Shown piece by piece: positions 7,513 through 54,446 of a DNA stretch of 64,000 nt. Origin of the DNA: a virus; the IMG/VR virus record IMGVR_UViG_3300042503_000209, positions 32,001 through 96,000 of that record. One strand, given 5' to 3'. The stretch's first letter is position 1. Every line of letters starts with the position of its first letter. Made by a program: the position numbers and the translations under genes. The notes under the pieces are model-generated. The model was not told the origin of the DNA. It did not search any database and saw nothing but the letters and a program-made list of their open reading frames with translations.

Positions 7513-7773
7513 ATGAAAAAATACATAAGTGCAGTGCTTAGTATAGGCACTGTAGGTATACTATTTTATACACTCTTTGATTTAAGACAACAAGTTAGCT
7601 CTTTAAAAAAAGAGTTAGTAGTTGTTACGGCTCAAAAAGATAGTTTGTATGATGAAAATTTTATAAAGCATGTACAGCTTGATAGGTATGAATTATCAGT
7701 AGATTATTTACTGACTAAAAATCCTAACGCTGCTTTACAATTAATAAATTATATGAACCATGAAACGGAATAA
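7513..7773 (+). CDS. small membrane-anchored coiled-coil protein
   Basis: N-terminal hydrophobic helix then a heptad-like segment. Confidence 0.6.
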   Translation: MKKYISAVLSIGTVGILFYTLFDLRQQVSSLKKELVVVTAQKDSLYDENFIKHVQLDRYELSVDYLLTKNPNAALQLINYMNHETE

Positions 7774-7864
7774 ATGGAACTGGGACTTTATCTTTGTATG
7801 GATAGTAATAGCTGCTACAAGTTTTACTCTTTGGTACAATATTATAAAGTTCTTTACACGATAA
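7760..7864 (+). CDS. small membrane peptide (34 aa; not in ORF track)
   Basis: MKRNKWNWDFIFVWIVIAATSFTLWYNIIKFFTR*; fills the gap; single TM helix. Confidence 0.55.
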   Translation: MKRNKWNWDFIFVWIVIAATSFTLWYNIIKFFTR

Positions 7865-7867
7865 ACC

Positions 7868-8134
7868 ATGAATAATTTTATATACAGACTTACAAGACTT
7901 AACGATGGTCTTGTTAAAGAAGGTACACAACTAGCTTGGATTAATTACAAACTAACTGGTAACTCAATATATAAAAGAATAGCAAAAGGTAGAGGTTTAG
8001 TTATTTATAGAAGCATGGGAAGCTATTGGCAAACTACACTAGTCCAGTCTTATAAAAAACTAGAAGATGGTACAATAATGTTTACTACAGAAAATAGTGA
8101 TTATAAATTAGAAAAAATAAAGAAAGAAAAATGA
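7868..8134 (+). CDS. hypothetical protein (88 aa)
   Basis: ORF; C-terminal WQTT...F.TENS.Y.L pattern common in small phage proteins. Confidence 0.65.
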   Translation: MNNFIYRLTRLNDGLVKEGTQLAWINYKLTGNSIYKRIAKGRGLVIYRSMGSYWQTTLVQSYKKLEDGTIMFTTENSDYKLEKIKKEK

Positions 8135-9126
8135 GCTTAGAAGACAAGAAAAAAAACATTTTTGAACCTAGAGTAAACATCCTACCCTATGAGTATCCAC
8201 AACTATTAGCATACAAAGATGCTATCCGTCACTCATATTGGATTGATACTGAGTACAACTTTACTACAGACATTGACGACTTTAGAGTCAAGGTGACTGA
8301 TGAGGAAAGAGAAGTGATCAAAAGAACAATGCTAGCCATTGCTCAGATTGAAGTTAACGTTAAGACCTTTTGGGCTGACTTGTATAAGAGAATGCCTATC
8401 ACTGAGATCGGTGATGTAGGCATGACGTTTGCAGAGTCTGAGGTGAGACACAAAGATGCTTATGCTAGACTACTTAGAATCTTAGGATTAGAAGAAGAGT
8501 TTAGAACAGTAATTGAAATACCAGCTATTGAGGGTAGAATCAAATACCTAAAGAAGTATCTTGACGGATCTCGTAGTAAAGACAATAAGATGTACACCAA
8601 AAGTGTTCTTCTTTTCTCTCTGTTCATTGAGCACGTAAGCTTATTCAGCCAGTTCTTGATCATGATGTCTTTCAACAAAGAGAAGAACTTATTCAAAGGT
8701 ATCTCTAACGTGGTAGAAGCTACTTCTAAAGAAGAGGATATCCACGGTAACTTTGGAGCTGAGCTGATTAATATAGTCAGATCAGAAAACCCAGAATGGT
8801 TTGACGAAGAGTTTGAAGAACTAATTTATTCTGCTTGTAACAAAGCTTACATTGCAGAGTGTGACATCTTAGACTGGATCTTTGAAAAAGGTGAGCTTGA
8901 CTTTCTTCCTAAAGAAAACATTAGACAGTTTATTATGAACAGGTTTAATAACTCTCTTGCAAAGATTGGTATGAAACCATTGTTCTATGTAGAGAATACC
9001 TTACTAGAACAGACTCATTGGTTTGACGTAGAGATTACAGCTACTAAAGAAGGGGACTTCTTTTACAAGAAACAAATTGATTACAATAAAAAATCTAAAG
9101 CAATCACAGAAGATGACCTATTCTAA
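8131..9126 (+). CDS. nrdB: ribonucleotide reductase beta subunit (class I, subclass Id-like)
   Basis: Ferritin-like ligands QIE74, E104xxH107, radical Y111, IEHVSLFSQF, EEDIH; C-terminal DFF. Confidence 0.92.
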   Translation: MSLEDKKKNIFEPRVNILPYEYPQLLAYKDAIRHSYWIDTEYNFTTDIDDFRVKVTDEEREVIKRTMLAIAQIEVNVKTFWADLYKRMPITEIGDVGMTFAESEVRHKDAYARLLRILGLEEEFRTVIEIPAIEGRIKYLKKYLDGSRSKDNKMYTKSVLLFSLFIEHVSLFSQFLIMMSFNKEKNLFKGISNVVEATSKEEDIHGNFGAELINIVRSENPEWFDEEFEELIYSACNKAYIAECDILDWIFEKGELDFLPKENIRQFIMNRFNNSLAKIGMKPLFYVENTLLEQTHWFDVEITATKEGDFFYKKQIDYNKKSKAITEDDLF

Positions 9127-33948: not shown

Positions 33949-35978
33949 TAACCATATCCATCATCATAACCAAATGGGTATGCACTTTGAGCCATAGGTG
34001 CTCTATTTAAAGCAGCATATTGAGCATTAATAGCTGCAGCATTACCTGCACCCCTATTAGATTGAAAAGCATTAGGAAATTGAGATCTTAAAAACCCATT
34101 AATAGTAGCAGCATCATGTCCTTCATTTTTTAATTCAAGAGCAAATCTTCTCATAGCTGCTAAACTTTGTTCAGATGGTGCAGCACTTTGTCCAGTAATC
34201 ATACTCATCCAGTTATTCTTATCTTTCCATTTAAGAGTTTCACCTTGTGGTCCTTCTTCTATAGAATAATACGGATTAGTTTCATTAAGCATGTTAAGCT
34301 TACTGTATCTATCACGCTCATTCATATTATACATTTCTCTAGCTTTAAGATCCATTCTCATAGTATTACGATAAGCTTTATCTTCTTGCTGAGCATTAAA
34401 TGCTAACTTGTCTCCAGCATCTGCTCTATAAGCCATCACTCTATTCATAATATCAGTTTGTAAAGGACTAAACTGATTAGCTACCCCAACATTCATGTTT
34501 TGATATCTACCCATAGTGTTAGCTGCTTGCTCAGCTCCTTGTGCATTTAATGCACTAGCTCTAGCAGAAAACTGCTGAGGATCCATTTGAGACATATAAG
34601 CCGCCATCATGTTACGATTAGATGCACCTTCAGCTAACTCTCTATTAGGATCGTAGAACGTAGGTTCTGGTATCATAGCATTAAGAGGTGCTGCATAAGG
34701 AGTGTAACGTTTAGGAGGAACCATAAACTGCATACCAAAGAACGGTCTTCTACCACCGCCTCCACCACCGCCACCGGTTGTAGTTATAGTAGTAGGATCT
34801 TCTTCATAGGTAATCTCATCCATCTTTTCCCATGCTTTTATACACTTAGTAGGATCATTAGGATCTGGTGTATAACCTTCAGGACAAGTTTTAGTCTCAG
34901 GTGTTGTAGGTGTAGTTGTAGGTTTAGTACCAGGTGTATACTTTGGCATTCTACCACGTAAAAGCTCATCTAATCCTTTTTGCTTTTCCCCATCTGAAGC
35001 ATCTTTAAAACCTTGTTTATTTAAAAAAGTACTATAACAATTAGGTCTAGCATTCATATCAGCGACTGTGTACTTAAGATTAGCACATGGTCCACTACCA
35101 CCTCTACTACTGCCACCAGTTGGAATATTATATCCTGGAGTTAATGTTCCTGGTGTACCCCCAGATATAGTACCTGGTTTACCAGGAGTTATAATAATAT
35201 CTTTAGTATCTTTACCAGATGTTGCTTTTCTCCATACATTAGTATTACCTACACGCTTATATCCTTCTTTCTCATATTTACTTATTTCTTCCTTCTTAAC
35301 TTTTTTAGGAGTAGTTCCACCACCTTGATAATAACCTTCATCACCACCATAAAAACCTCCCATCTCAGCAAGTTGTTGTCCCATACCTTCTGGTAATACA
35401 GACATAGCTACATCAGGAATACCTTGAGGAAATCCTTTCATAGACTCTTGTACTAATGCAAGTCCACCAAGTTTTTTTTCATAGTTATCAATCATTCTTT
35501 CAGCTGTACGTTTAGCCATCTTATCAGCATAAGGATCATCAAGTATAGCTCTGTACTTGTTAACATCATACTGCTTAGCTAAAGCTGCTGGGGTAAATTT
35601 CTGTTTAGTGTTTTCTGACTTACCAAACTTTGCAAGTACAGGTCCACCTATTCGTAACTTCTTTGTATCAGAATAAATAAAAGTACCTTCAGGAACATTT
35701 AAAGGTGTACCACCATTAGTATGTCTTTCACCACCAATCTTCATATGTTCTTTACGACCATCATTATTAAAGTCTCCATATGCTGTTTCACCAAGCTCAG
35801 CTTCAATATTAGCTTCAGCTCTATCAACAGGTTGAAGAGTGTTAGATACTGACTCATATGGATTTTGGTTCATATCAGTGTATACATCTCGTTGCCCAAG
35901 ATCTAGACCATAGTTTTTTTGACCACCATACGCCATAGATTCTGGAGCACTTTTAATTCTTACTTTATACTTTTTCAT
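33945..35978 (-). CDS. virion protein with xxxGG linkers (677 aa)
   Basis: N-terminal EAExGE...GxxHxxGG...FIYSD domain; MAYGG/AEMGG/YQGGG linkers; Pro/Thr-rich middle. Confidence 0.65.
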   Translation of the reverse strand: MKKYKVRIKSAPESMAYGGQKNYGLDLGQRDVYTDMNQNPYESVSNTLQPVDRAEANIEAELGETAYGDFNNDGRKEHMKIGGERHTNGGTPLNVPEGTFIYSDTKKLRIGGPVLAKFGKSENTKQKFTPAALAKQYDVNKYRAILDDPYADKMAKRTAERMIDNYEKKLGGLALVQESMKGFPQGIPDVAMSVLPEGMGQQLAEMGGFYGGDEGYYQGGGTTPKKVKKEEISKYEKEGYKRVGNTNVWRKATSGKDTKDIIITPGKPGTISGGTPGTLTPGYNIPTGGSSRGGSGPCANLKYTVADMNARPNCYSTFLNKQGFKDASDGEKQKGLDELLRGRMPKYTPGTKPTTTPTTPETKTCPEGYTPDPNDPTKCIKAWEKMDEITYEEDPTTITTTGGGGGGGGRRPFFGMQFMVPPKRYTPYAAPLNAMIPEPTFYDPNRELAEGASNRNMMAAYMSQMDPQQFSARASALNAQGAEQAANTMGRYQNMNVGVANQFSPLQTDIMNRVMAYRADAGDKLAFNAQQEDKAYRNTMRMDLKAREMYNMNERDRYSKLNMLNETNPYYSIEEGPQGETLKWKDKNNWMSMITGQSAAPSEQSLAAMRRFALELKNEGHDAATINGFLRSQFPNAFQSNRGAGNAAAINAQYAALNRAPMAQSAYPFGYDDGYGY

Positions 35979-35999: not shown

Positions 36000-37760
36000 T
36001 TATAGAAATTCTACTTCACCACCTGAAGCTAATATACTTTTTATTTCATCCTCTGTTAGTTCATATATACCTCCAGATTCATATTGTGATATTGTACCGC
36101 CATCAGCATACAACTTCATACCACTTAATTTATTGTATGCTTGCTTACCTTCCCATCTAGCAAATTGTTTTATTAACTTATCACGTTCTTCAGGAGTAAG
36201 ATCTGCTAACACTTTATCTGTCCCCATAGCTTTTACAATATCTGGGGTAGACGCATTAGTTTTATCTGGACTACCACTAACCCATTTGTTTCTAGCTTGA
36301 GATATTGTAAGGTTAGAATAAGCCGGACCAAATAAAAGATCTTGAGCTGCTCTAATACCTGTTTGAAAATCTGGAAATTTACTTACAAAACCACCACTAT
36401 CTTTAGCACCTTGTACACCACCATACTTAGAAGTAAAATCACCATGATGTATATTCAAAGGATTATTATGACTTAAAGCAATTTCACCATCCACATTACC
36501 ACCAGATGCTCTATTAAAACTTACATGAACATGATCTGTATGTGGACTTTTGCCATTATATGGTCTCCATGAATTAGAAACAGATGGATTCCAAATCTGT
36601 TTATTCCAAATAATATATTTAATATTTTTATCTTGAGCTTCTTTAATAAGCTTTTGAGCTATTTCGTTTCCTTGATCTAAACCTGTTATACCAATATCTA
36701 AAGCATCTCCAGTATTATGATCACTTACTGATTTCTTATGGTTTGCATCACCCCATATCCCCCAATTTTGAACTCCTTGAAACTGAGAAGAAACTTCTTT
36801 CCATGTTTGTTCTGCAACCGGATTAGCACCACTAGATTTAACTGGAGCTGGAGAAGCATTTTCAGAAGTAGCGTAAGCTTCACCTGTAGCCATTGGACTC
36901 TGTAAAGGCATAGAAAAAGGAATTTGGTCAACCGGTAACATTAACTCATCAGGTATAATGCCTCCACCATACTGTGCCATTCTTGGTAAGAATTGACCAG
37001 TATACATGCCTTTATTTACAACATACTCATCAGGTCTAAACTCTCCAAATCTGCTACCACTAACTACATAGTCTCCACGGTTACCTGACATCTCACTAGG
37101 TACTTCAGGAAACAAAGAATCTGTAGATGTTTGGCGTCTTAACCTTTTATCAAATTCTTGTTTTCTTTTATAACTATTTACAAGTTCAGTACCAAAGTTT
37201 CCCCATGATGTTAATCTATTAATATCTTGAAAAGCTTTTTCTACTGGTTGACCTATATTTTTACTGTACCAACTAACTGGATTTGTGGATGTATTAGATT
37301 GAGTATTAGCTGCTGCAGCTTGTGGTGCTTGATAAAACGGTGAAGCAGGATCTGTATCAAACTCCTCATCATCCCATTCAGAATGCCAAAATCTTTTAGG
37401 AGTTGTAGATGTTGTATTTGCAGCTGGAGCAGCAGTAGTATTAGTAGGTTGTACAGTAGGAGTAACTATAGAAGAACTACCACTAGGTTGTACAGGTGCT
37501 TGACCAAACGGTTTAAAAGTTAAACTAGGAAACTTAGGACCAGCGGCTTTAAGAGCATCTATCTTATTACCATTTTGCAAACCGAGTTTTTGTCTACCAG
37601 AATTTAAAAATAATGAAGACTGACTCATAAGTTGAGCATATCTAGGATCATTAGGAGATATTAATTCACCATTATAACTTAAAGTAGTAGGGACATTACT
37701 TTTCTGTTGTCCAGCAAGTTGAGCTTTAGGTAAACCTTTTCCTGTAATACGTATTTTCAT
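36000..37760 (-). CDS. modular virion protein: M15-type (Hedgehog/DD-peptidase fold) peptidase plus lysozyme-like NNPLNI domain
   Basis: SDHNTGDALD...HTDHVHVSF; HNNPLNI...F.....G..A...L...Y..LTI.....KW...ARWEG. Confidence 0.7.
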   Translation of the reverse strand: MKIRITGKGLPKAQLAGQQKSNVPTTLSYNGELISPNDPRYAQLMSQSSLFLNSGRQKLGLQNGNKIDALKAAGPKFPSLTFKPFGQAPVQPSGSSSIVTPTVQPTNTTAAPAANTTSTTPKRFWHSEWDDEEFDTDPASPFYQAPQAAAANTQSNTSTNPVSWYSKNIGQPVEKAFQDINRLTSWGNFGTELVNSYKRKQEFDKRLRRQTSTDSLFPEVPSEMSGNRGDYVVSGSRFGEFRPDEYVVNKGMYTGQFLPRMAQYGGGIIPDELMLPVDQIPFSMPLQSPMATGEAYATSENASPAPVKSSGANPVAEQTWKEVSSQFQGVQNWGIWGDANHKKSVSDHNTGDALDIGITGLDQGNEIAQKLIKEAQDKNIKYIIWNKQIWNPSVSNSWRPYNGKSPHTDHVHVSFNRASGGNVDGEIALSHNNPLNIHHGDFTSKYGGVQGAKDSGGFVSKFPDFQTGIRAAQDLLFGPAYSNLTISQARNKWVSGSPDKTNASTPDIVKAMGTDKVLADLTPEERDKLIKQFARWEGKQAYNKLSGMKLYADGGTISQYESGGIYELTEDEIKSILASGGEVEFL

Positions 37761-39151
37761 TAGTCAATAATTTCAAAGTTATAACCACCTTGTTTTAACA
37801 TTTGTAGTTCTTCTGGAGTGACATCTAATATATCACCTTCTACTGGACCACCCATTTGCTTAGCAAAGTTCCTAGCAAAGTTAGCTTTTTTCCTCATAGC
37901 AGGACTATATCTTCCTTCTGGTGCGTTAAGTATTGCTGATGCAGCTTCTTGTACTCCCATACCCATACGAGTAGCCTGTGCTTTAAATGTGCCAGCTTTA
38001 GCAGGATCTAATTGTATACCACCGTATGCCATATTAGATAATATCTGTTGTTGTACAAATTCAGGTAGAGCTCTAAAACCTGCATTGTTAGTACCACCTT
38101 TCTCATAAAAAGCATTACCACTAAATGTAGTACCACCTTCTTTCCATGTAGCTCTAGCAAATGCTCTAAAGAAAGGATTATTAGCTAAGTTCTTTTTATG
38201 ACGAGCATAGAAAGCTTTCTTTCTTTCTGGATCTTTAGGATGCTGACCTAACTTAGAATCACCAAAATATTTAACAACTCCACCAGGTCCTGTCACTTTA
38301 TGTGTCTTACCCTTACGATCATTACTTCTAGTTACAGTGTATCCACCTCTTGCCATCATTTCTTTTTCATCTTCTTGCTCATACTCTTCATCTTCCATTT
38401 CTTCACCTTGAGCTTCAGGATTATACATCATATAATCTGAAATACTATTTACACTATCATCAATCACAGCAAGCTTAGAAGCAATCCATGGATCTAAGTT
38501 TTGTTCTGGAGAAACAAACTGACGTAGTTTATTCATCTTATCAGCAACAGCAGACATTTGACCTAGTGCCATACCACCGTTTGGTTCACCACCTTCAGCA
38601 AACACTCCTGTCATATAACCACCATATCTCATAGCAGCTTGCTGCATGTCTGGTTGTTGCATACCAGGTTGTTGTGAACCAGCTCCTTGTTGTTGTACAG
38701 CTTGAACCATTTGTTCAAAAGCTCTTTGCTGATCTTCTGGAGACATCTGCTGTAATTGCTGTAAAATCTTTTCAGGTTCTACTTGGTTCATTTGAGCAAA
38801 CTGCTGAATAACCATCATAATCTGATCTTGTTGTCCACCCTGCTGCATATATTGGTTTCCACCATACATCATTTCTGGAGCATATCCACCATAGGCATAA
38901 CCGTAATTATCCATTTGATCTAGATTACCAGCTGCTGCAAAACGTGCACGAGCTATTTCAGGTGGCATTTTTTCTCCACCACCTCCCATTACTTCCATAC
39001 CGTATTCAGCTTTACGCCAAGTGCCGCCTTTAGATTTATACCACTTAGCAGCCCATCCGTTAGCATAAGCACTAGGGTAGACATCAAATTTTTGTTTAGC
39101 CATAGACTTAGCTCTAGACCACAAGGCAGGATTATTAGGTTTGTTTGCCAT
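37760..39151 (-). CDS. multi-module protein with 12 xxxGG linkers (463 aa)
   Basis: Short basic, acidic and Gln-rich modules each bounded by a GG motif. Confidence 0.7.
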   Translation of the reverse strand: MANKPNNPALWSRAKSMAKQKFDVYPSAYANGWAAKWYKSKGGTWRKAEYGMEVMGGGGEKMPPEIARARFAAAGNLDQMDNYGYAYGGYAPEMMYGGNQYMQQGGQQDQIMMVIQQFAQMNQVEPEKILQQLQQMSPEDQQRAFEQMVQAVQQQGAGSQQPGMQQPDMQQAAMRYGGYMTGVFAEGGEPNGGMALGQMSAVADKMNKLRQFVSPEQNLDPWIASKLAVIDDSVNSISDYMMYNPEAQGEEMEDEEYEQEDEKEMMARGGYTVTRSNDRKGKTHKVTGPGGVVKYFGDSKLGQHPKDPERKKAFYARHKKNLANNPFFRAFARATWKEGGTTFSGNAFYEKGGTNNAGFRALPEFVQQQILSNMAYGGIQLDPAKAGTFKAQATRMGMGVQEAASAILNAPEGRYSPAMRKKANFARNFAKQMGGPVEGDILDVTPEELQMLKQGGYNFEIID

Positions 39152-39160
39152 AATATATAA

Positions 39161-42100
39161 TTATTTTTTGTATTTAAATTTAGGATTATTAGGATTAAAA
39201 GGAGCATACTGATTAGTGTTCCATATACGTCCATACCATGTATCATAATAATCACTATTAGGTACACCCGGTGCTGGGTTATTTATATTTCTATAATACC
39301 AATCTCTACCTTTATTCATTAAAACTCTTCTCTTATTTTCAGGAAGTTTACCAATAGTATTAGCATACTCTTTATCAAAAGAATAAGCTGGATTTTTTCT
39401 ACCAGACCATTTGCCATCAGCATCTAATTTAGATGGATCATATTGTCTGTAATATTCTTGTAAAGCATATGCTCTAGGATCTTTAGTTATTTTATTATTA
39501 GTTTTATCCCAACCAGCATTAAATATAAAATCCATAGCTTCACCAGCTTCCATAGCACTTGCACCTGGCATTATCTTTTTTACTTCTGGATAAACCTTTT
39601 CCATTAACATTTTCATGTAACTAGGATCACTATAATATGGTAAAGGAGAACCGCCAGGACCACCTCTAAGTTCCTCATACTTTAATATATTTCCAGCAAT
39701 GTTTCTTACACTATCAGCTGAAGAAACTTGACCAGCAAACTGCATTTTTTTATGATTGTATGGAATACGTTCACTACTTGTTTTAGTCCTTTTAAATTTA
39801 TCTTTTTCTGCAGAACTCATTTCAGATGATGTCTTAGGTGTCTGAGAGTTTACTCTTTTAGAAGGACGACATGCTGGATAGCCGGCTCTCTTTTCTCCTT
39901 CTTGTCTACCGCACGCTTTACCAGTCTTTACATCTACCCACTTCTCTGCAAACCATCTATCTAAACCACCATGTTGTCCACCACTTTTCATCTTAACAGT
40001 ACCACCACACTTATGACAAGTCATTGGATCATAACCACCATCAGCAGCTTTCCATGACCATCCACAATTAGAACAAGAAACATTCTTGCTTAAAAGTCCA
40101 CCATTCTTAACTTGAGGTATAGCATCAGAAGCATAAGATGTTTTATTCTTTACTACATTATTATGAAGATCTGCAAGCTTTTGAGGATCGTTTCCAATTA
40201 TCTTTAAAATATCATCTAAACTATTCAGACTATTTTCTTTGCTCTTAAAAAGTTCATCACGAAAATTTTTAAAACTTCCCTTATAGTTATTATGATCATT
40301 AATGATCTTTTTCATATCCTCTGCTGTATACTTCTTTTTTGGATCTAGATTATACTGATATCTAAACTCATTAAGACGAGCATTTATTTCAGTTGGAGTA
40401 GAAAGATAATCATATTCATTTCTGGTACTAACATATCTATCAGTTTTAAAATTTTTGTTTTTAGGAATTACTTGTTTAGAAATAAAACTACTAGGAGTAC
40501 TGTATAAATTAGCATCCCAAAACCATCTAGGTTGATCATAAAAAGTATTATCCTCATAATCCATTTTATGAGTAAGTTCATGAATTTGAGTAGGGGCACT
40601 AAAACTTGTTGGATAATCAGTATTAAAGTTTAATGAAGAATCTTTAGGGGTATAAAAAGCCTGAGTATTATATAGATTTTCATTTGTCTCTATATCTTTA
40701 TTAGTGTATGTTTTATATTTTCCTGATAAATTATCTAAAACAGATAATCTGCTATTAGCCCATTCAGTAAACTTAGGATCCTTAGCTCTTTCAGTTAACC
40801 AATACTGCATAAAATTACGCATATCTTTGTAACCTTCTTTTAAAGAACCATCTTCAACTGTTATTCTAGTGTCATGATTATGAGCATACTTTTTCTTATT
40901 AACGTTTTTATTAAGAGCTGCCATAGTTGCCAAGTCAGATCTAGATAGACCACCACCTGACCACCCACCTTTTTGCATCATTGGATATTCATCTACATAA
41001 GATGCACCACCAAAGTTATAATCCTTACCAGGATACATTACTTGTTTCTTACCGTTGTTACCTATTCCTAATACAGGATATGGTACACCTTGCATTGTAA
41101 TATCTGATCCAGGTATACGAGTAACTTTACCAGGGTGAGCCCATTGACCACGAGGATCTAATATAGGTCCACCTTGTTTTTTATAATTTTGCATTCCTGC
41201 ATACACTCCAAATTGACCTACTTCAGCTGGGGGAGCTGAAGGAAAAAATGGAACATTAGGAGCTTGTTGAATAGCTTGTATAGCATCTGTACCACGACCT
41301 GCATAGGGTACTCCCTGTATAACTTTACTAACTGCATCTAATCCAATTTTATGACGGGCTTTCAAACCAACTTTAGATGCATTACTCATCATCTTACCAA
41401 ATTTACCTACCTTTCCTAACAAAGGAAGTGCACCAAATATTTCAAGTTCTGTTTGAGGAGACATTCCAGTTTCTTTGTATGATTTGTAAACATCATCCCA
41501 AGAACTTAGTCCTGTTGGATCAATTATTTCAAATATATTTTCTAAAGTAGAATCAGTTTGACCACCTCGTTGCTTCTTAGCACTACCCTTTTGTTTTTCA
41601 AATTCAGTAATACGAGGTTGTCCAGTAAACGGTTGAATGTTATTTAACAACTCATAATACTCTGCATAAGTAGGATTAGATTTATTCTTATTAATATATT
41701 CTAAACTTTTAACAAAGTTAGGATTTGTAAAGATCTCAGGATACTTAGCTTTAAGTTCATCAAACGCAGTCTTTTGTCCTTCTTTAGCTAAGCCAATATG
41801 TGCAACGTCCCAGTCTTCAAGATGATACATTCCTGTTTTATCAGCAGCACTCCAAAGAACATCTTTATATAACTTTTTATTTACATTAGCATCAATAGGT
41901 TTACCATCTACATATAGAACGTAATCTTTTGCTGCATCAAAATTATGAAGAGATACTGGAGTTTGAGAGTTACCTTTTTTCTGAATCTCAAGTTGTGATT
42001 GTATATCACGTCCACCAGTCTTATCATAAAGACCAGTGTTTTGATAGCCAACACTAACCTTTTTACCAGGATATAATGATTGAAGTTTCTTAGTAGCTTC

Positions 42101-50915: not shown

Positions 50916-51809
50916 TTACAATCCCTCTGTTGATTTAAACATATCGTAATACTTACTATACATAGCTTTACGATTTGTTTGCCATAACTTATACATTTCT
51001 GCAAAGTCAGGAGTGTTAACAATACTTAATGCATTATTTCTTGCTGCTCTTAAACGCTGCTCTACTAGCTGAATTCTTTGAGAAACATCCTCCCCGTTCA
51101 TGTATAAGTTTTCTAGAATACGCTGCTTCATAGCATATTCATAATACTCATTAATTACAGGATGATCTAATACCAATAAATTACCATCATCATCTTGTAA
51201 TGCACCTTGATATGATATAAATAGTTTTCCTTCTTCTACATTACTATAAACAAAACCATTCTTAATATATCCGTTTTTACCACTATCGTTTAAAGCATCT
51301 ATTCTTCCTGTAGAAGTAGAGATACTTATCTTTTCAAAGTTGTTGTAAGTCCTAGTTTCATACTTACGCTTTTCTACAACCTGTACATATATCTTCTCAC
51401 CTGTCTTACACTCTACACTGTATGTTCTTTCACAAAGACAAGTAGTGTCAACTTCTCCGCATTTATTACATACATTCTTACCATCTACAGTTTTGCAATG
51501 TCTAGGATCAAGTATAACATTCTCAGTATGACGACCATGCATTACAGGATAAGTAGCTGTTACCTCTCCACACAAGTATGCATAGTTTAACACATAGAAA
51601 TCATCAGGTAACTTAGCCTTATTCTTTTCTATGTCAATTATCTTTTCTTTAGTTCCATGAATTCTTAAACCTAAATCATAACTTACACGCTGAGCCACCT
51701 TAATAAGCTGACCAGCTTCAATCATGCCCTCATTACTATACGTACTAAAATCCACCGAAACTTCATCAAGAAGTTGGTTAAAAGTTCTATATTGTAATTC
51801 AGTTTTCAT
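50916..51809 (-). CDS. tail ring/tubular protein (crAss-like)
   Basis: Synteny with the stabilization gene; AKLPDDF, ISYQG...DDDGNLLV.D pattern. Confidence 0.6.
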   Translation of the reverse strand: MKTELQYRTFNQLLDEVSVDFSTYSNEGMIEAGQLIKVAQRVSYDLGLRIHGTKEKIIDIEKNKAKLPDDFYVLNYAYLCGEVTATYPVMHGRHTENVILDPRHCKTVDGKNVCNKCGEVDTTCLCERTYSVECKTGEKIYVQVVEKRKYETRTYNNFEKISISTSTGRIDALNDSGKNGYIKNGFVYSNVEEGKLFISYQGALQDDDGNLLVLDHPVINEYYEYAMKQRILENLYMNGEDVSQRIQLVEQRLRAARNNALSIVNTPDFAEMYKLWQTNRKAMYSKYYDMFKSTEGL

Positions 51810-52480
51810 CGTAATCCACTTTGTTTATCTTGAGCAGTATCTGAAGGAATTTGCATCATTCCCATAAGATCCTTAAATACGTTGTTCTCTATCTCACCAA
51901 ATAAATAATCTGGTACATTAAACGGTTGATCTGTTTTTTGAACACAACTGTCATCTGCACAAGTAAACATAGAAATATCTTCTTCAAAGATTCCCTCTAT
52001 ACGTACAGCATCCCATTCTAAATTAGGAAAGTATAAGTAGTCATTTAAATACCAAAAGTATTTTGACTTATTAAACTTAAAGTTTTTAGATTTAGTCATT
52101 GCCATGTAAGTACCTGGATTGGTTGAACTTACGCTTTGAGAACCATCAATAGATGTGGTAGCTCTAATTAGTGGACCATAAAAACCCTGCATAAAAATTG
52201 GCATCTTCTCTTTTGTACGTTTGATTTTACAATCAGAAGTTAAGCCTGTGCAGCATGCCTCCACTTTATCCACTTCAATAAGTTCTACATAATCCATAGT
52301 TTGAACAACACCAGAATAACTAAGAAGTTGGTTCTTACCATCTTCACGTTTCATCAACCACTTAGCATGCTTTAATATAAAAGCATAGATAGCTCTGTCA
52401 GTCAAGAAAGCATCTTGTCTAACTGCTTTTATCTGTGTACGCATTCTAGAGATTACATCTCCTATAGTAGTTTTAGCCAT
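51806..52480 (-). CDS. tail ring/adaptor protein (crAss-like)
   Basis: Synteny; YFWYLNDYLYF...VRIEGIFEED pattern. Confidence 0.6.
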   Translation of the reverse strand: MAKTTIGDVISRMRTQIKAVRQDAFLTDRAIYAFILKHAKWLMKREDGKNQLLSYSGVVQTMDYVELIEVDKVEACCTGLTSDCKIKRTKEKMPIFMQGFYGPLIRATTSIDGSQSVSSTNPGTYMAMTKSKNFKFNKSKYFWYLNDYLYFPNLEWDAVRIEGIFEEDISMFTCADDSCVQKTDQPFNVPDYLFGEIENNVFKDLMGMMQIPSDTAQDKQSGLR

Positions 52481-53075: not shown

Positions 53076-53133
53076 TACATTAATAATTTACGAAAAATCT
53101 ACGAGGTTTCCTACTTAAACTTTCAGGGTTTAA
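53076..53133 (-). promoter_or_regulatory. putative late promoter with two upstream AAAY-N7-GTTT palindromes
   Basis: Minus-strand core GTAAATTATTAATGTA; colinear with 33891-33948. Confidence 0.6.
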
Positions 53134-54446
53134 GCATTATGAGTAAACTCTGATATTTTACCTTTGGTCAAGTGGTGGATTTCCATAACTGCTTGACGCT
53201 TAGACCCCGTAAACTTGTTGTGATAATGCCAATAATCTGACTTAGATAAAGAAGGAAGATGTTTAATTGAGAAGCCATGTACCTCATTATCTGTTACAAA
53301 TTCTACTACTTTCTTAGTATGAAAGTGTCCAGTGTAACAAGTTCTAAAGCTAGTCATACCCCATTGTAAAGGGAACTCAGTAGCATAAACGAGAGGTGTG
53401 TTTTTCTTAGTTACGTCACCATGTTCAAATGCAAAGAAGTTCTCACCCCATGTGATAACCTTTCTTTCAGCGTAGTTGGCATTAAACGTAATAGAAATTT
53501 CTTGTGTAAAGCACTTAGATAGTGCATGTACTAAATGGTAGGAAGATAAACGGTCATGGTTACCAGGTAGGTAAACCACCTCTAGTTCTTTACAGAACTG
53601 CTTAATAAAGTTAATTGACCAGAACATTGCGTCAAAAGCCTCATCATAGGCATCCTGAGCTCTAAGGTCAGAGTCTACAGGTGTTCCCTTAGTAGTTAGT
53701 CCACTAAAGGTATCCATGTTAAGAAGGTCCCCTCCAATCACATATATGATCTTTTCGACCATATGAGCATGATAAGATCTTAGTACAAGACTCTTAATGC
53801 TTTCTTTAAAGTCATCTACTATAGATAGGTTACCCTCTTTACCAAAATGGAGATCCTGTATAGACAAGATCCCCACCGTAGGCTGGTCAAAACTTTCATT
53901 TATAAAAACCTCTGCAACGGGTTTATATACAGGTTGAAATGACTTTAGCGTTTCAGCTAAAAAGTCTTTCGGCTCCAGTTGTTTCTGAGTGACCATAGCA
54001 GAAACCAACCAGTAATCTTTGTGTTGTTTATTCCAATAAGAACTAAGCTTCCACTTATCAGTGTCTATCTTAAGTATTCTAATAATTTCTTCTGGACTTT
54101 TAGGTTCAGCAAAGGCTATACCTTTTATTTCTGCTGTACCATCATCCAAGTTTTCTTTAAACTCTACCACCTTTTCTTTGTTTTGATTGATAGCTTCTAC
54201 TAAACTATCTTCAAGTTGGGTGATATACTGTGACTTAATTGCCTCATCATCAATGAGTTCTAACATTCTTTGTCCAGCAAAGTTTATTAGTTGTGTGTCC
54301 AGTTCGTCTTGTAAAAGACTCTTAGTTTGTAAAATTTGTTTTTTGATTTCTTGGTATTTCTCTAAAGAAATCCCTAATTTTATGGCACAGAACTCATCTG
54401 TTTTTTTCCATTTGAAGGAGCCATACACCTGGTTGATTAGTGTCAT
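53130..54446 (-). CDS. metallophosphoesterase-domain protein with N-terminal helical extension
   Basis: QDLHFG, GGDLLN, PGNHD, EHGD, TGHFH motifs. Confidence 0.8.
   Translation of the reverse strand: MTLINQVYGSFKWKKTDEFCAIKLGISLEKYQEIKKQILQTKSLLQDELDTQLINFAGQRMLELIDDEAIKSQYITQLEDSLVEAINQNKEKVVEFKENLDDGTAEIKGIAFAEPKSPEEIIRILKIDTDKWKLSSYWNKQHKDYWLVSAMVTQKQLEPKDFLAETLKSFQPVYKPVAEVFINESFDQPTVGILSIQDLHFGKEGNLSIVDDFKESIKSLVLRSYHAHMVEKIIYVIGGDLLNMDTFSGLTTKGTPVDSDLRAQDAYDEAFDAMFWSINFIKQFCKELEVVYLPGNHDRLSSYHLVHALSKCFTQEISITFNANYAERKVITWGENFFAFEHGDVTKKNTPLVYATEFPLQWGMTSFRTCYTGHFHTKKVVEFVTDNEVHGFSIKHLPSLSKSDYWHYHNKFTGSKRQAVMEIHHLTKGKISEFTHNA

What the first reader, a model, noticed from the sequence alone, without database searches (positions are those of the whole stretch)
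37760..39151. 463-aa 'beads on a string' protein: 12 GG linkers separating 5-80 aa modules
Seen: MGGGG 38975, YAYGG 38885, MMYGG 38858, MQQGG 38834, MRYGG 38618, FAEGG 38588, MARGG 38342, WKEGG 38132, YEKGG 38093, MAYGG 38018, KQMGG 37847, LKQGG 37784. Between them lie a basic N-terminal module, a short helix (PPEIARARFAAAG), a Gln-rich helical module, a helical hairpin with acidic tail (MALGQM...PWIASKL...DYMMY), a basic module, NNAGFRALPEFVQQQIL, and a basic ...RKKANFARNF module. Several linkers are only 8-13 aa apart, which looks like empty slots left by module loss or linker duplication. Inference: a precursor of small basic DNA-condensing and acidic scaffold-like peptides, comparable to adenovirus core pVII/mu.
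Basis: partly seen in the sequence, partly recalled or inferred. Interest (0 to 1): 0.8.

Follow-up and report, generated by a model that had tools for sequence, protein, structure and literature searches.

The report
Gly-Gly-seamed modular crAss-phage cargo protein
This 463-residue protein of an uncultured crAss-like phage is most likely carried in the virus particle and injected. It is a string of small swappable modules joined by one short conserved peptide (bulky residue-x-x-Gly-Gly); the pattern is real and widespread, but nothing shows that the string is cut into peptides.

Summary
The ORF (37760-39151, minus strand) has 15 GG runs, not 12, against 5.3 +/- 1.8 in shuffles. Ten carry [MFYW]-x-x-G-G, against 0.95 expected. 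Basic and acidic modules alternate as described. More than 4,000 relatives exist. Modules are deleted, inserted, moved or stand alone, and breakpoints fall on the GG seams. The target's MGGGG is the scar of a mini-module that now sits at residues 354-378.

The setting is the cargo block of a crAss-like phage: ring proteins R2 and R1, a muzzle-sized protein, a 2117-aa protein, then this gene. Module 379-435 also occurs in gut crassvirus cargo protein 1 homologues.

The "cleaved precursor" reading is not supported. No Gly-Gly or prohead protease family was found in this genome or in a 92%-complete relative. The bulky residue sits one position off the adenain consensus. In crAss001 gp45, the stretch reported as resolved (425-552) spans a seam.

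New here: a roughly 30-residue C-terminal tag ends this protein and the next one. Every tag-ending gene examined is followed by a gene starting MK-x-(K)-V/I-R-I-K/T, which may be a head-to-tail coupler.

The scan has noted the same seam motif before in other crAss-like genomes.

The parts
37760..39151 (-). 463-aa cargo-block protein (whole CDS). ATG lies 9 nt after the stop of the 2117-aa gene; its TAA overlaps the ATG of the next gene (TAATG).
39023..39151 (-). Module M1, aa 1-43. Basic (+7), contains SAYANGWAAKWYKSKGG. Resembles the N-terminal half of DUF5872. Widespread in phage proteins of many architectures and also found as a small stand-alone ORF.
38975..38989 (-). MGGGG, aa 55-59. Fused double seam: the deletion scar of a mini-module that is present here in 24 of 28 orthologues.
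38834..38974 (-). aa 60-106. Short helix PPEIARARFAAAG followed by three tandem seam units (YAYGG, MMYGG, MQQGG) 8-9 residues apart.
38618..38833 (-). Module M3, aa 107-178. Gln-rich helical module (net -4) ending in MRYGG. Deleted cleanly in several orthologues. pLDDT 70-78 over aa 110-150.
38342..38572 (-). Module M4, aa 194-270. Helical hairpin (MALGQM...PWIASKL...DYMMY) with an acidic tail (net -12), ending in MARGG.
38132..38341 (-). Module M5, aa 271-340. Basic (+12): three short strands plus helices (YTVTRSNDRKGKTHKVTGPGG...FYARHKKN...), ending in WKEGG. It is the module found most often in other architectures.
38018..38092 (-). Mobile mini-module, aa 354-378 (TNNAGFRALPEFVQQQILSNMAYGG). 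Most orthologues carry it near residue 60 instead.
37847..38017 (-). Module M6, aa 379-435. Basic (+6), three-helix. Shared with gut crassvirus cargo protein 1 homologues and weakly with crAss001 gp45 371-420. Stand-alone 75-aa gene in cr10_1. Weak ribbon-helix-helix resemblance.
37763..37846 (-). C-terminal tag, aa 436-463 (PVEGDILDVTPEELQMLKQGGYNFEIID). Acidic, predicted strand-helix-GG-strand. Found at the extreme C-terminus of 164 of 256 collected relatives.
36003..36083 (-). The same kind of C-terminal tag on the next gene, the 586-aa protein (YESGGIYELTEDEIKSILASGGEVEFL).
37725..37760 (-). Basic N-terminal strand of the 586-aa protein (MKIRITGKGLPK), directly after the target's tag. Candidate docking partner (inference).
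35943..35978 (-). Basic N-terminal strand of the 677-aa protein (MKKYKVRIKSAP), directly after the 586-aa protein's tag. It is internal, and preceded by a seam, in the fused relatives L003 and L004.

Best explanation
The protein is a virion cargo (ejection) protein of a crAss-like phage, encoded second in the cargo block behind the tail muzzle.

It is not one fold. It is a chain of small autonomous modules of 20-80 aa: three basic, two acidic or Gln-rich helical, and one C-terminal tag. They are joined by a conserved seam, [M/Y/F/W]-x-x-G-G.

I read the seam as a structural joint that stays intact. The Gly-Gly gives a sharp flexible break. The bulky residue caps the neighbouring module. Each bead can then fold and unfold on its own while the chain is stored in the cargo zone and threaded through the portal and tail.

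Because every module ends in the same short peptide, usually encoded GGTGGW, deletions, insertions and exchanges at seams give in-frame, functional products. That would explain the combinatorial variety of relatives.

The C-terminal tag is the addressing or coupling element. It probably docks the protein in the particle, possibly onto the basic N-terminal strand of the next cargo protein.

Shown: motif enrichment and conservation, module exchange at seams, cargo-block position, a module shared with crassvirus cargo protein 1, and the tag shared by neighbouring genes. Inferred: presence in the virion, an uncut chain, hinge and threading function, DNA binding by the basic modules, and tag docking.
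For: Setting:
- CrAss_Ring_2 and CrAss_Ring_1 score above Pfam cut-offs at 51806-52480 and 50916-51809. They are followed by a 1680-aa muzzle-position protein, a 2117-aa protein, and then the target.
- The same gene order holds in six related loci.
- A relative's genome has a crAss-type portal and the Crass_capsid MCP.

Link to a known cargo protein:
- M6 matches cr108_1 gp_22604 at E 1e-12. That protein carries PF25725 crAss_CARG1 and sits directly after the muzzle.
- The M6 profile aligns to crAss001 gp45 residues 371-420. gp45 was a row in that profile, so this score is not independent. The pairwise match of the target to gp45 is weak, E 0.05.

Seam:
- 15 GG runs against 5.3 expected.
- Logo over 2,200 unique sites: 66% M/Y/F/W at position -3.
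- GG columns are invariant among orthologues.
- 62% of homology breakpoints lie within 3 residues of a GG, against 26% for random positions.
- Cassette indels are bounded exactly by GG.
- GG enrichment is confined to cargo genes, both here and in crAss001, where gp45 has z 3.2 and portal, MCP, muzzle, gp46 and gp47 are near 0.

Uncut chain:
- The gp45 segments reported as resolved, 214-245 and 425-552, start just after, or at, a seam (GG 209-210; AFGG 425-428). The second spans its seam.
- No protease family was found.

No global fold: AF2 gives pTM 0.20, with confident islands only in M3, M6 and the tag.

Tag: an HMM built from the tag hits the target and the next gene at their extreme C-termini in four genomes, at E 1e-8 to 1e-19.
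Against: - Presence in the virion is inferred from gene position and one shared module. The target has no crAss_CARG1 domain.
- A plain hinge does not need a conserved bulky residue at -3, nor tandem 'empty' seams 8-9 residues apart. Both fit a recognised peptide motif, for cutting or docking, better.
- Stand-alone modules keep an upstream seam behind a short leader, for example MKELEGVYPLYPVPSYKNGG in cr10_1. This resembles a leader-plus-cleavage-site layout.
- Only one seam in one distant relative is known to be uncut.
- This contig lacks its head genes, and an unknown protease fold would escape family searches.
- The crAss001 mass spectrometry used one excised gel band of whole virions, so it says nothing about whether gp45 is intact.
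Confidence: 0.55

Rival explanations
1. Polyprotein: the chain is loaded into the procapsid through its C-terminal tag. An unrecognised phage or host protease then cuts after each Phi-x-x-G-G. This releases small basic, DNA-associated peptides and acidic peptides, as adenain does with pVII and mu, or ASFV pS273R does with pp220.
For: - The seam has a defined consensus with a bulky residue at a fixed distance from GG, as cleavage sites do.
- Seams flank every module and also occur in tandem.
- Modules exist as separate small genes elsewhere, and these keep a leader plus seam.
- Different parts of crAss001 gp45 lie on opposite sides of the portal tunnel, 12 copies each. Free fragments would explain that simply.
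Against: - No C5, C48, C39, S78, S77 or MPTase family in this genome or in a 92%-complete relative.
- Nothing protease-like lies between portal and MCP in the relative.
- The bulky residue is at P5, not P4 as in the (M/L/I)XGG or LXGG sites of clan-CE enzymes.
- The conserved GG-P seam at 434-436 would resist most such enzymes (established knowledge of Ub/SUMO-type proteases).
- The gp45 AFGG seam at 425-428 lies inside the stretch reported as resolved.
Confidence: 0.15
2. Multivalent docking or cohesive motif: Phi-x-x-G-G is a short linear motif repeated for avidity. It would bind repeated pockets of the 12-fold portal or tail barrel. Alternatively it would stick to itself, like FG repeats between Q-rich spacers, and hold the cargo as a compact gel in the DNA-free cargo zone until ejection.
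For: - Tandem seam units with no module between them (YAYGG-x7-MMYGG-x6-MQQGG), next to Gln/Met-rich low-complexity sequence.
- The conserved bulky residue.
- In gp45, the ordered portal-bound domain begins with the seam residues AFGGW.
- The cargo zone is a distinct low-density region.
Against: - No binding partner has been identified.
- Seams coincide with evolutionary module borders, which a pure binding motif need not do.
- AF2 gives the seams low confidence and no defined contacts.
Confidence: 0.15
3. Not a virion component: a modular, DNA-binding late or regulatory protein that happens to be encoded in the structural operon. The stand-alone M6 homologues are annotated 'transcriptional regulator'.
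For: - Depositors' annotation of the cr10_1 and cr50_1 M6 genes.
- Weak ribbon-helix-helix resemblance: ParG at E 0.019, and CopG/NikA-like Atlas rows at TM 0.3-0.5.
Against: - The gene is translationally coupled inside the muzzle-to-vRNAP cargo operon.
- M6 is part of bona fide cargo protein 1 homologues.
- The stand-alone M6 gene in cr10_1 lies between portal and MCP.
- Fold searches do not confirm an RHH fold.
Confidence: 0.05

Closest known systems
Cargo protein 1 (gp45) of Bacteroides phage crAss001 and its homologues (Pfam PF25725 crAss_CARG1; PDB 7QOG and related entries; Bayfield et al. 2023, PMC10172136)
   Same: - Encoded just downstream of the tail muzzle.
- GG runs enriched: gp45 has 20 against 11.4 expected, z 3.2.
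- Seams of the type F/Y-GG at the borders of the segments seen in the virion.
- Shares the M6 module (cr108_1 E 1e-12; gp45 371-420 weakly).
- Module order differs between relatives: CARG1 then M6 in cr108_1, M6 then CARG1 in crAss001 and Dulem virus 41.
   Different: - The target lacks the CARG1 portal-binding domain and the Gly-rich putative membrane segment.
- It is half the size.
- It has a far denser seam pattern.
- It carries M1, M5 and the C-terminal tag, which gp45 lacks.
- In this phage it is the second gene after the muzzle, not the first.
Ejection (internal virion) proteins of podoviruses (T7 gp14-16, P22 gp7/16/20; Swanson, Hou and Cingolani 2022, PMC8954989)
   Same: - Stored in the head and expelled through the portal and tail before or with the DNA.
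- Must partly unfold to pass.
- Domains swap between genes, described as a 'mosaically modular organization'.
   Different: - No conserved junction peptide is described for them.
- Their domains are large.
- No sequence similarity to the target was found.
Polyvalent proteins of phages and conjugative elements (Iyer et al. 2017, PMC5512222)
   Same: Many unrelated domains in one polypeptide that is delivered with the invading DNA, in combinatorial architectures.
   Different: - Polyvalent proteins are built from enzymatic anti-defence domains and usually carry an MPTase peptidase thought to release them.
- Here no MPTase and no enzymatic domain was found.
- The modules here are tiny.
- The paper mentions neither glycine nor a linker motif.
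Gly-Gly-processed virion polyproteins (adenovirus pVII/pX-mu with adenain; ASFV pp220/pp62 with pS273R)
   Same: Basic core peptides separated by sites that end in Gly-Gly; the precursors are loaded into the capsid.
   Different: - A cognate clan-CE protease is encoded by those viruses but was not found here.
- Their consensus has the hydrophobic residue at P4; here it is at P5.
- No cleavage has been shown, and one related seam appears uncut.
DUF5872 (PF19197), a family of unknown function in giant viruses and phages
   Same: Residues 5-50 align to profile positions 1-45 (SAYANGW...KGG.W). The neighbouring 2117-aa protein carries profile positions 46-111.
   Different: The score is 19.2 bits, below the 27.5-bit cut-off. 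Only the first 45 of the 116 profile positions are present, which shows that this 'family' is itself composed of separable modules.

Membership tests
Crassvirales cargo protein 1 (gp45-like) | crAss_CARG1 compact portal-binding domain (PF25725) | tested here: not met
   Pfam scan of the target at E <= 1 lists no CARG1. The positive control cr108_1 gp_22604 scores 196 bits.
Crassvirales cargo protein 1 (gp45-like) | Encoded in the block between the tail muzzle and the virion RNA polymerase genes | tested here: met
   The order is R2, R1, a 119-aa gene, a 1680-aa protein, a 2117-aa protein, the target, then 586-, 677-, 1060- and 4545-aa proteins. The same order holds in six related loci.
Crassvirales cargo protein 1 (gp45-like) | Detectable sequence homology to known C1 proteins | tested here: met
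   Homology covers module M6 only: E 1e-12 to cr108_1 C1 and 76% identity to Dulem virus 41 C1. The pairwise match to gp45 itself is weak, E 0.05.
Crassvirales cargo protein 1 (gp45-like) | Physically present in the virion | not testable with these tools
   The phage is uncultured, so no proteomics exist.
DUF5872 (PF19197) | Score above the curated cut-off over the full 116-position profile | tested here: not met
   19.2 bits against a cut-off of 27.5; only profile positions 1-45 match.
Gly-Gly-cleaved virion polyprotein (adenovirus / ASFV type) | Cognate cysteine protease encoded by the virus (Peptidase_C5, C48 or similar) | tested here: not met
   No match at E <= 1 for PF00770 or PF02902. 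The same holds for C39, S78, S77 and MPTase. Both G000 (83% complete) and G001 (92% complete) were searched. An unknown protease fold is not excluded.
Gly-Gly-cleaved virion polyprotein (adenovirus / ASFV type) | Site consensus (M/L/I)-X-G-G|X, with the hydrophobic residue at P4 | tested here: not met
   The logo of 2,200 sites puts M/Y/F/W (66%) at P5. P4 is A/Q/E/K.
Gly-Gly-cleaved virion polyprotein (adenovirus / ASFV type) | Cleavage products in mature particles | not testable with these tools
   There is only indirect evidence. The gp45 stretch reported as resolved, 425-552, spans the seam at G427-G428.
Polyvalent proteins (Iyer et al. 2017) | Enzymatic or anti-defence domains plus an MPTase processing peptidase | tested here: not met
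   PF18818 is absent from both genomes. No enzymatic Pfam domain was found in the target.
Ribbon-helix-helix DNA-binding domain (for module M6) | Strand-helix-helix fold that dimerises | tested here: inconclusive
   The M6 profile hits ParG at E 0.019 over its RHH core. Atlas rows for CopG, NikA and RHH antitoxin reach TM 0.3-0.5. The AF2 monomer shows three helices and no strand, at pLDDT 68. Foldseek and VIA give no clear match; the best VIA score is Z 4.3.

The most novel reading that the evidence does not exclude
The cargo block encodes one ordered 'train' of beads. Modules are linked covalently by Phi-x-x-G-G seams within genes. Between genes they are linked non-covalently by an acidic C-terminal tag (strand-helix-GG-strand) that pairs with the basic N-terminal strand (MK-x-K-V-R-I-K) of the next gene product. 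The proteins would then leave the particle in gene order. Fusion and fission of genes simply convert one kind of link into the other, as seen in relatives where the 586- and 677-type genes are fused, the tag is lost and a seam precedes the same strand. A more radical variant, still not excluded, is that some seams are cut by an unrecognised protease. That would make this a phage polyprotein system.
Probability: 0.2. Interest if true: 0.8.

Novelty: new variant of a known kind. Interest (0 to 1): 0.6.

Why it matters
Crassviruses are among the most abundant phages in the gut and are common in other habitats. How they store about 5 MDa of protein cargo and push it through a narrow tail is unresolved.

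A conserved junction peptide that marks every module border gives a concrete handle on that problem. So does a C-terminal tag shared by successive cargo proteins. The seam shows where cargo proteins can be dissected, where they recombine, and which residues to mutate to test threading, docking or cutting.

It also offers a reading of the crAss001 finding that two parts of gp45 lie on opposite sides of the portal.

In practice, the seam and tag are simple sequence signatures for finding cargo genes in uncultured phage genomes. They also show that 'families' such as DUF5872 are composites of smaller mobile units.

Tried and rejected
Gene context therefore came from IMG/VR loci and public phage records instead.
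- PDB sequence searches with the target, the muzzle-position protein and the 2117-aa protein gave nothing usable.
- Whole-protein AF2 model: pLDDT 45.8, pTM 0.20. Its VIA search returned only generic helical hairpins over residues 186-254, Z <= 7.3.
- M6-only model (pLDDT 68): Foldseek found no match at E <= 0.001, and the best VIA score was Z 4.3. No fold was assigned.
- Complex prediction on two copies of M6, as a test of an RHH-type dimer, returned 'no answer' with score 0.01. This is not evidence either way. It also used the single job, so the tag/N-strand pairing could not be tested.
- Family searches for proteases (S78, C48, C5, C39, S77, MPTase) were negative in G000 and G001.
- The gene annotated 'peptidase' next to the cr10_1 portal matches no peptidase family. 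Pfam gives only an aRib domain, and PHROGs gives nothing.
- No paralogy between the target and other proteins of its own genome beyond seam-sized matches.
- The alignment of both tag types was too divergent to seed a collection scan. The 586-type tag alone worked.
- Library searches for DUF5872, crassvirus cargo proteolysis and glycine-rich linkers in ejection proteins found no description of the seam motif.
- I considered whether the GGTGG coding of the seams is a recombination signal. It follows from the genome's Gly codon usage (GGT is 70% of Gly codons), so I make no claim.
Full report
**1. The observation**

Its ATG lies 9 nt after the stop of the upstream 2117-aa gene. Its TAA overlaps the ATG of the next gene as TAATG.

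All twelve listed motifs are at the stated coordinates. Three further GG runs exist, at residues 42, 192 and 290, giving 15. In 20,000 shuffles of the protein's own residues the mean was 5.3 +/- 1.8, and no shuffle reached 15. The fuller motif [MFYW]-x-x-G-G occurs ten times against 0.95 expected.

Across the 108-kb contig, GG enrichment is confined to four adjacent genes:
- the target, z 5.2
- the 677-aa protein, z 2.4
- the 2117-aa protein, z 1.9
- the 586-aa protein, z 1.6

Those four genes hold 20 of the genome's 41 motif instances in 11% of its residues. The alternation of basic and acidic segments is also as described.

**2. Relatives and modularity**

A word-indexed search found more than 4,487 relatives. 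An exhaustive HMMER search found 3,101 cluster representatives, 138-2,293 aa long. The query's segments recur at different places and in different company. The segments are roughly 1-54, 55-100, 101-189, 185-259, 262-342 and 373-462. Companion domains include DUF3597 and DUF5754.

An alignment of 28 colinear orthologues shows clean cassette events bounded by GG on both sides:
- The Gln-rich module is absent in several.
- Module 379-435 is absent in nine.
- One orthologue has a ~100-residue insertion between two seams.

In 24 of the 28, a ~25-residue mini-module (N-x-GF-x-ALP...NM-x-x-GG) sits where the target has only MGGGG. In the target and its two closest relatives, the same mini-module sits at 354-378 instead.

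Of 415 internal homology breakpoints, 62% fall within three residues of a GG. Random positions give 26%. The GG columns are invariant or nearly so, while mean column identity is 53%. A logo over 2,200 unique seams gives M 33%, Y 19%, F 8%, W 6% and K 10% three residues before the first Gly. The next position is A/Q/E/K, and E/Y/I follow the GG.

**3. Where the gene sits**

Pfam places CrAss_Ring_2 and CrAss_Ring_1 above their curated cut-offs at 51806-52480 and 50916-51809. After them come, in order:
- a 119-aa gene
- a 1680-aa protein in the muzzle position
- a 2117-aa protein with an M15-type peptidase match and the C-terminal half of DUF5872
- the target
- the 586-, 677- and 1060-aa proteins
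- a 4545-aa protein

Six related IMG/VR loci keep this order. The contig itself lacks terminase, portal and capsid genes and is rated 83% complete. A 92%-complete relative (G001) has a crAss-type portal, with E 9e-25 to crAss001 gp20, and the Crass_capsid MCP.

In crAss001, the genes after the muzzle gp44 are cargo proteins gp45 and gp46 and then the RNA-polymerase proteins. The target is therefore in the cargo block.

**4. A direct link to a known cargo protein**

Module M6 (379-435) matches gut crassvirus proteins:
- In cr108_1 it lies in gp_22604, directly after the muzzle. That protein scores 196 bits for crAss_CARG1, and M6 aligns to it at E 1e-12.
- In Dulem virus 41 it lies in the equivalent protein, at 76% identity.
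- In cr10_1 it is a stand-alone 75-aa gene between the portal-adjacent gene and the capsid gene.
- crAss001 gp45 has a weak copy at 371-420. The pairwise match is E 0.05. The profile hit is not independent, because gp45 was in the profile.

The order of M6 and CARG1 is reversed between cr108_1 on one side and crAss001 and Dulem virus 41 on the other. Module shuffling is therefore a property of crassvirus cargo proteins in general.

gp45 is itself enriched in GG, with 20 runs against 11.4 expected (z 3.2). Portal, MCP, muzzle, gp46 and gp47 are not.

**5. Cut or not cut**

Against it:

(a) Family searches for Peptidase_C5, C48, C39, S78, S77 and MPTase-PolyVal found nothing at E <= 1 in this genome or in G001. 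The genes between portal and MCP in G001 match no protease family.

(b) The bulky residue is at P5, not P4 as in the (M/L/I)XGG sites of clan-CE enzymes.

(c) The conserved seam at 434-436 is GG-Pro.

[quoted passage not shown] In the 842-residue sequence, which is identical to the PDB chain, the seams are at GG 209-210 (FSAYGG), 427-428 (NAFGG) and 562-563 (FAYGG). Both resolved segments therefore begin at or just after a seam. The second includes A425-F426 upstream of its GG, so that seam appears intact in the mature virion.

The paper's mass spectrometry used a single excised band of whole virions. It cannot speak to intactness. Cleavage at other seams, or by an unknown protease, is not excluded. 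I give it 0.15.

**6. What the modules are**

AF2 on the whole protein gives pTM 0.20 and mean pLDDT 45.8. Confident islands occur only in the Gln-rich helices, M6 and the C-terminal tag. There is no global fold.

M1 (SAYANGW...KGG.W) is the N-terminal half of DUF5872, below the curated cut-off. It occurs in hundreds of viral contigs of many sizes and at many positions, usually in proteins without GG enrichment. It also occurs as 57-85-aa ORFs. Examples are a gene next to the small terminase in a T4-like cyanophage and a 61-aa gene in a roseophage.

M6 alone folds as three helices at pLDDT 68. A profile of M6 hits the ribbon-helix-helix protein ParG at E 0.019. The ESM Atlas lists CopG, NikA and RHH rows at TM 0.3-0.5. 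Neither fold search confirms this, and the dimer test gave no answer. DNA binding by the basic modules is plausible but not shown.

**7. A shared C-terminal tag**

Of the 256 collected relatives, 164 end in the same ~30 residues. The pattern is GG, then [DE][LV][TS]xx[EQ][LI]xx[LI]xxxG[GYQ]x[FVI][EQ][IFL]. Very short relatives keep this tag while carrying different module sets.

An HMM of the tag hits the extreme C-terminus of the target and of the next gene in this genome and in three related loci, at E 1e-8 to 1e-19. That next gene is otherwise unrelated to the target.

Every tag-ending gene I examined is followed by a gene beginning with a basic strand-like N-terminus, such as MKIRITGKGLPK, MKKYKVRIKSAP or MKVRITKKPG. 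This held in seven loci and in 17 more found with the 586-type tag, down to 48% tag identity.

In two relatives the 586-type and 677-type genes are fused. There the tag is gone, and the same strand (IKIRITGKP...) is internal, preceded by a seam (MFEMGG).

This is compatible with the tag pairing with the next protein's N-terminal strand. Shared synteny among related phages could produce the same co-occurrence, and I could not test binding.

**8. Verdict**

The modular reading is supported. The cleaved-precursor reading is not supported, though it is not excluded.

The best-supported account is an intact, bead-on-a-string cargo protein of a crAss-like phage. Its conserved Phi-x-x-G-G seams are structural joints and evolutionary exchange points. 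Its C-terminal tag addresses or couples it inside the particle.

The same seam motif has been noted before by this scan in other crAss-like genomes. I found no description of it in the searchable literature.

Noticed in passing
window 36003-36083, 37725-37760 and 35943-35978 (-); loci L002-L007 and L093-L109: A C-terminal tag (...ELTEDEIKSILASGGEVEFL) ends successive cargo genes. Each tag-ending gene is followed by a gene starting MK-x-(K)-V/I-R-I-K/T. This held in 7 loci plus 17 more. In L003 and L004 the two downstream genes are fused, the tag is lost, and a seam precedes the same strand.
   Followed up: partly
window 39775-39991 (-), residues 1841-1913 of the 2117-aa protein: The C-terminal half of DUF5872 (profile positions 46-111, E 3e-13) lies in the neighbouring gene, while the N-terminal half lies in the target. 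This stretch is 73% identical at DNA level to a hypothetical gene of the T7-like Prochlorococcus phage P-SCSP2, which suggests a widely mobile module.
   Followed up: partly
L084 (crAss001) gp45, residues 209-210, 427-428 and 562-563: The two gp45 segments resolved by cryo-EM (214-245 in the tail barrel, 425-552 on the portal) are bracketed by x-A-F/Y-G-G seams. The region between them would have to pass the portal tunnel in 12 copies if the chain is intact.
   Followed up: partly
window 53130-54446 (-): A 438-aa protein inside the tail and ring gene block matches PHROG 704, 'DNA repair exonuclease' (E 3e-48), but no Pfam family. A 448-aa gene sits at a comparable position in G001; I did not compare the two sequences. 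This is an odd function for that position.
   Followed up: no
G000 contig ends (genome 1-32000 and 96001-108133): The contig carries replication genes (helicases, UDG, MoxR-like ATPase, DnaB, primase, PolA, RNR) and three Gly-rich proteins of 1444-1852 aa. It has no terminase, portal or MCP, so it is truncated at the head-gene end. Relatives are 120-131 kb.
   Followed up: partly
L082 (cr10_1) 7643-8941: The gene annotated 'peptidase' between portal and MCP in this gut crassvirus matches no peptidase family. Pfam gives only an aRib domain and PHROGs gives nothing, so the annotation looks unsupported.
   Followed up: partly
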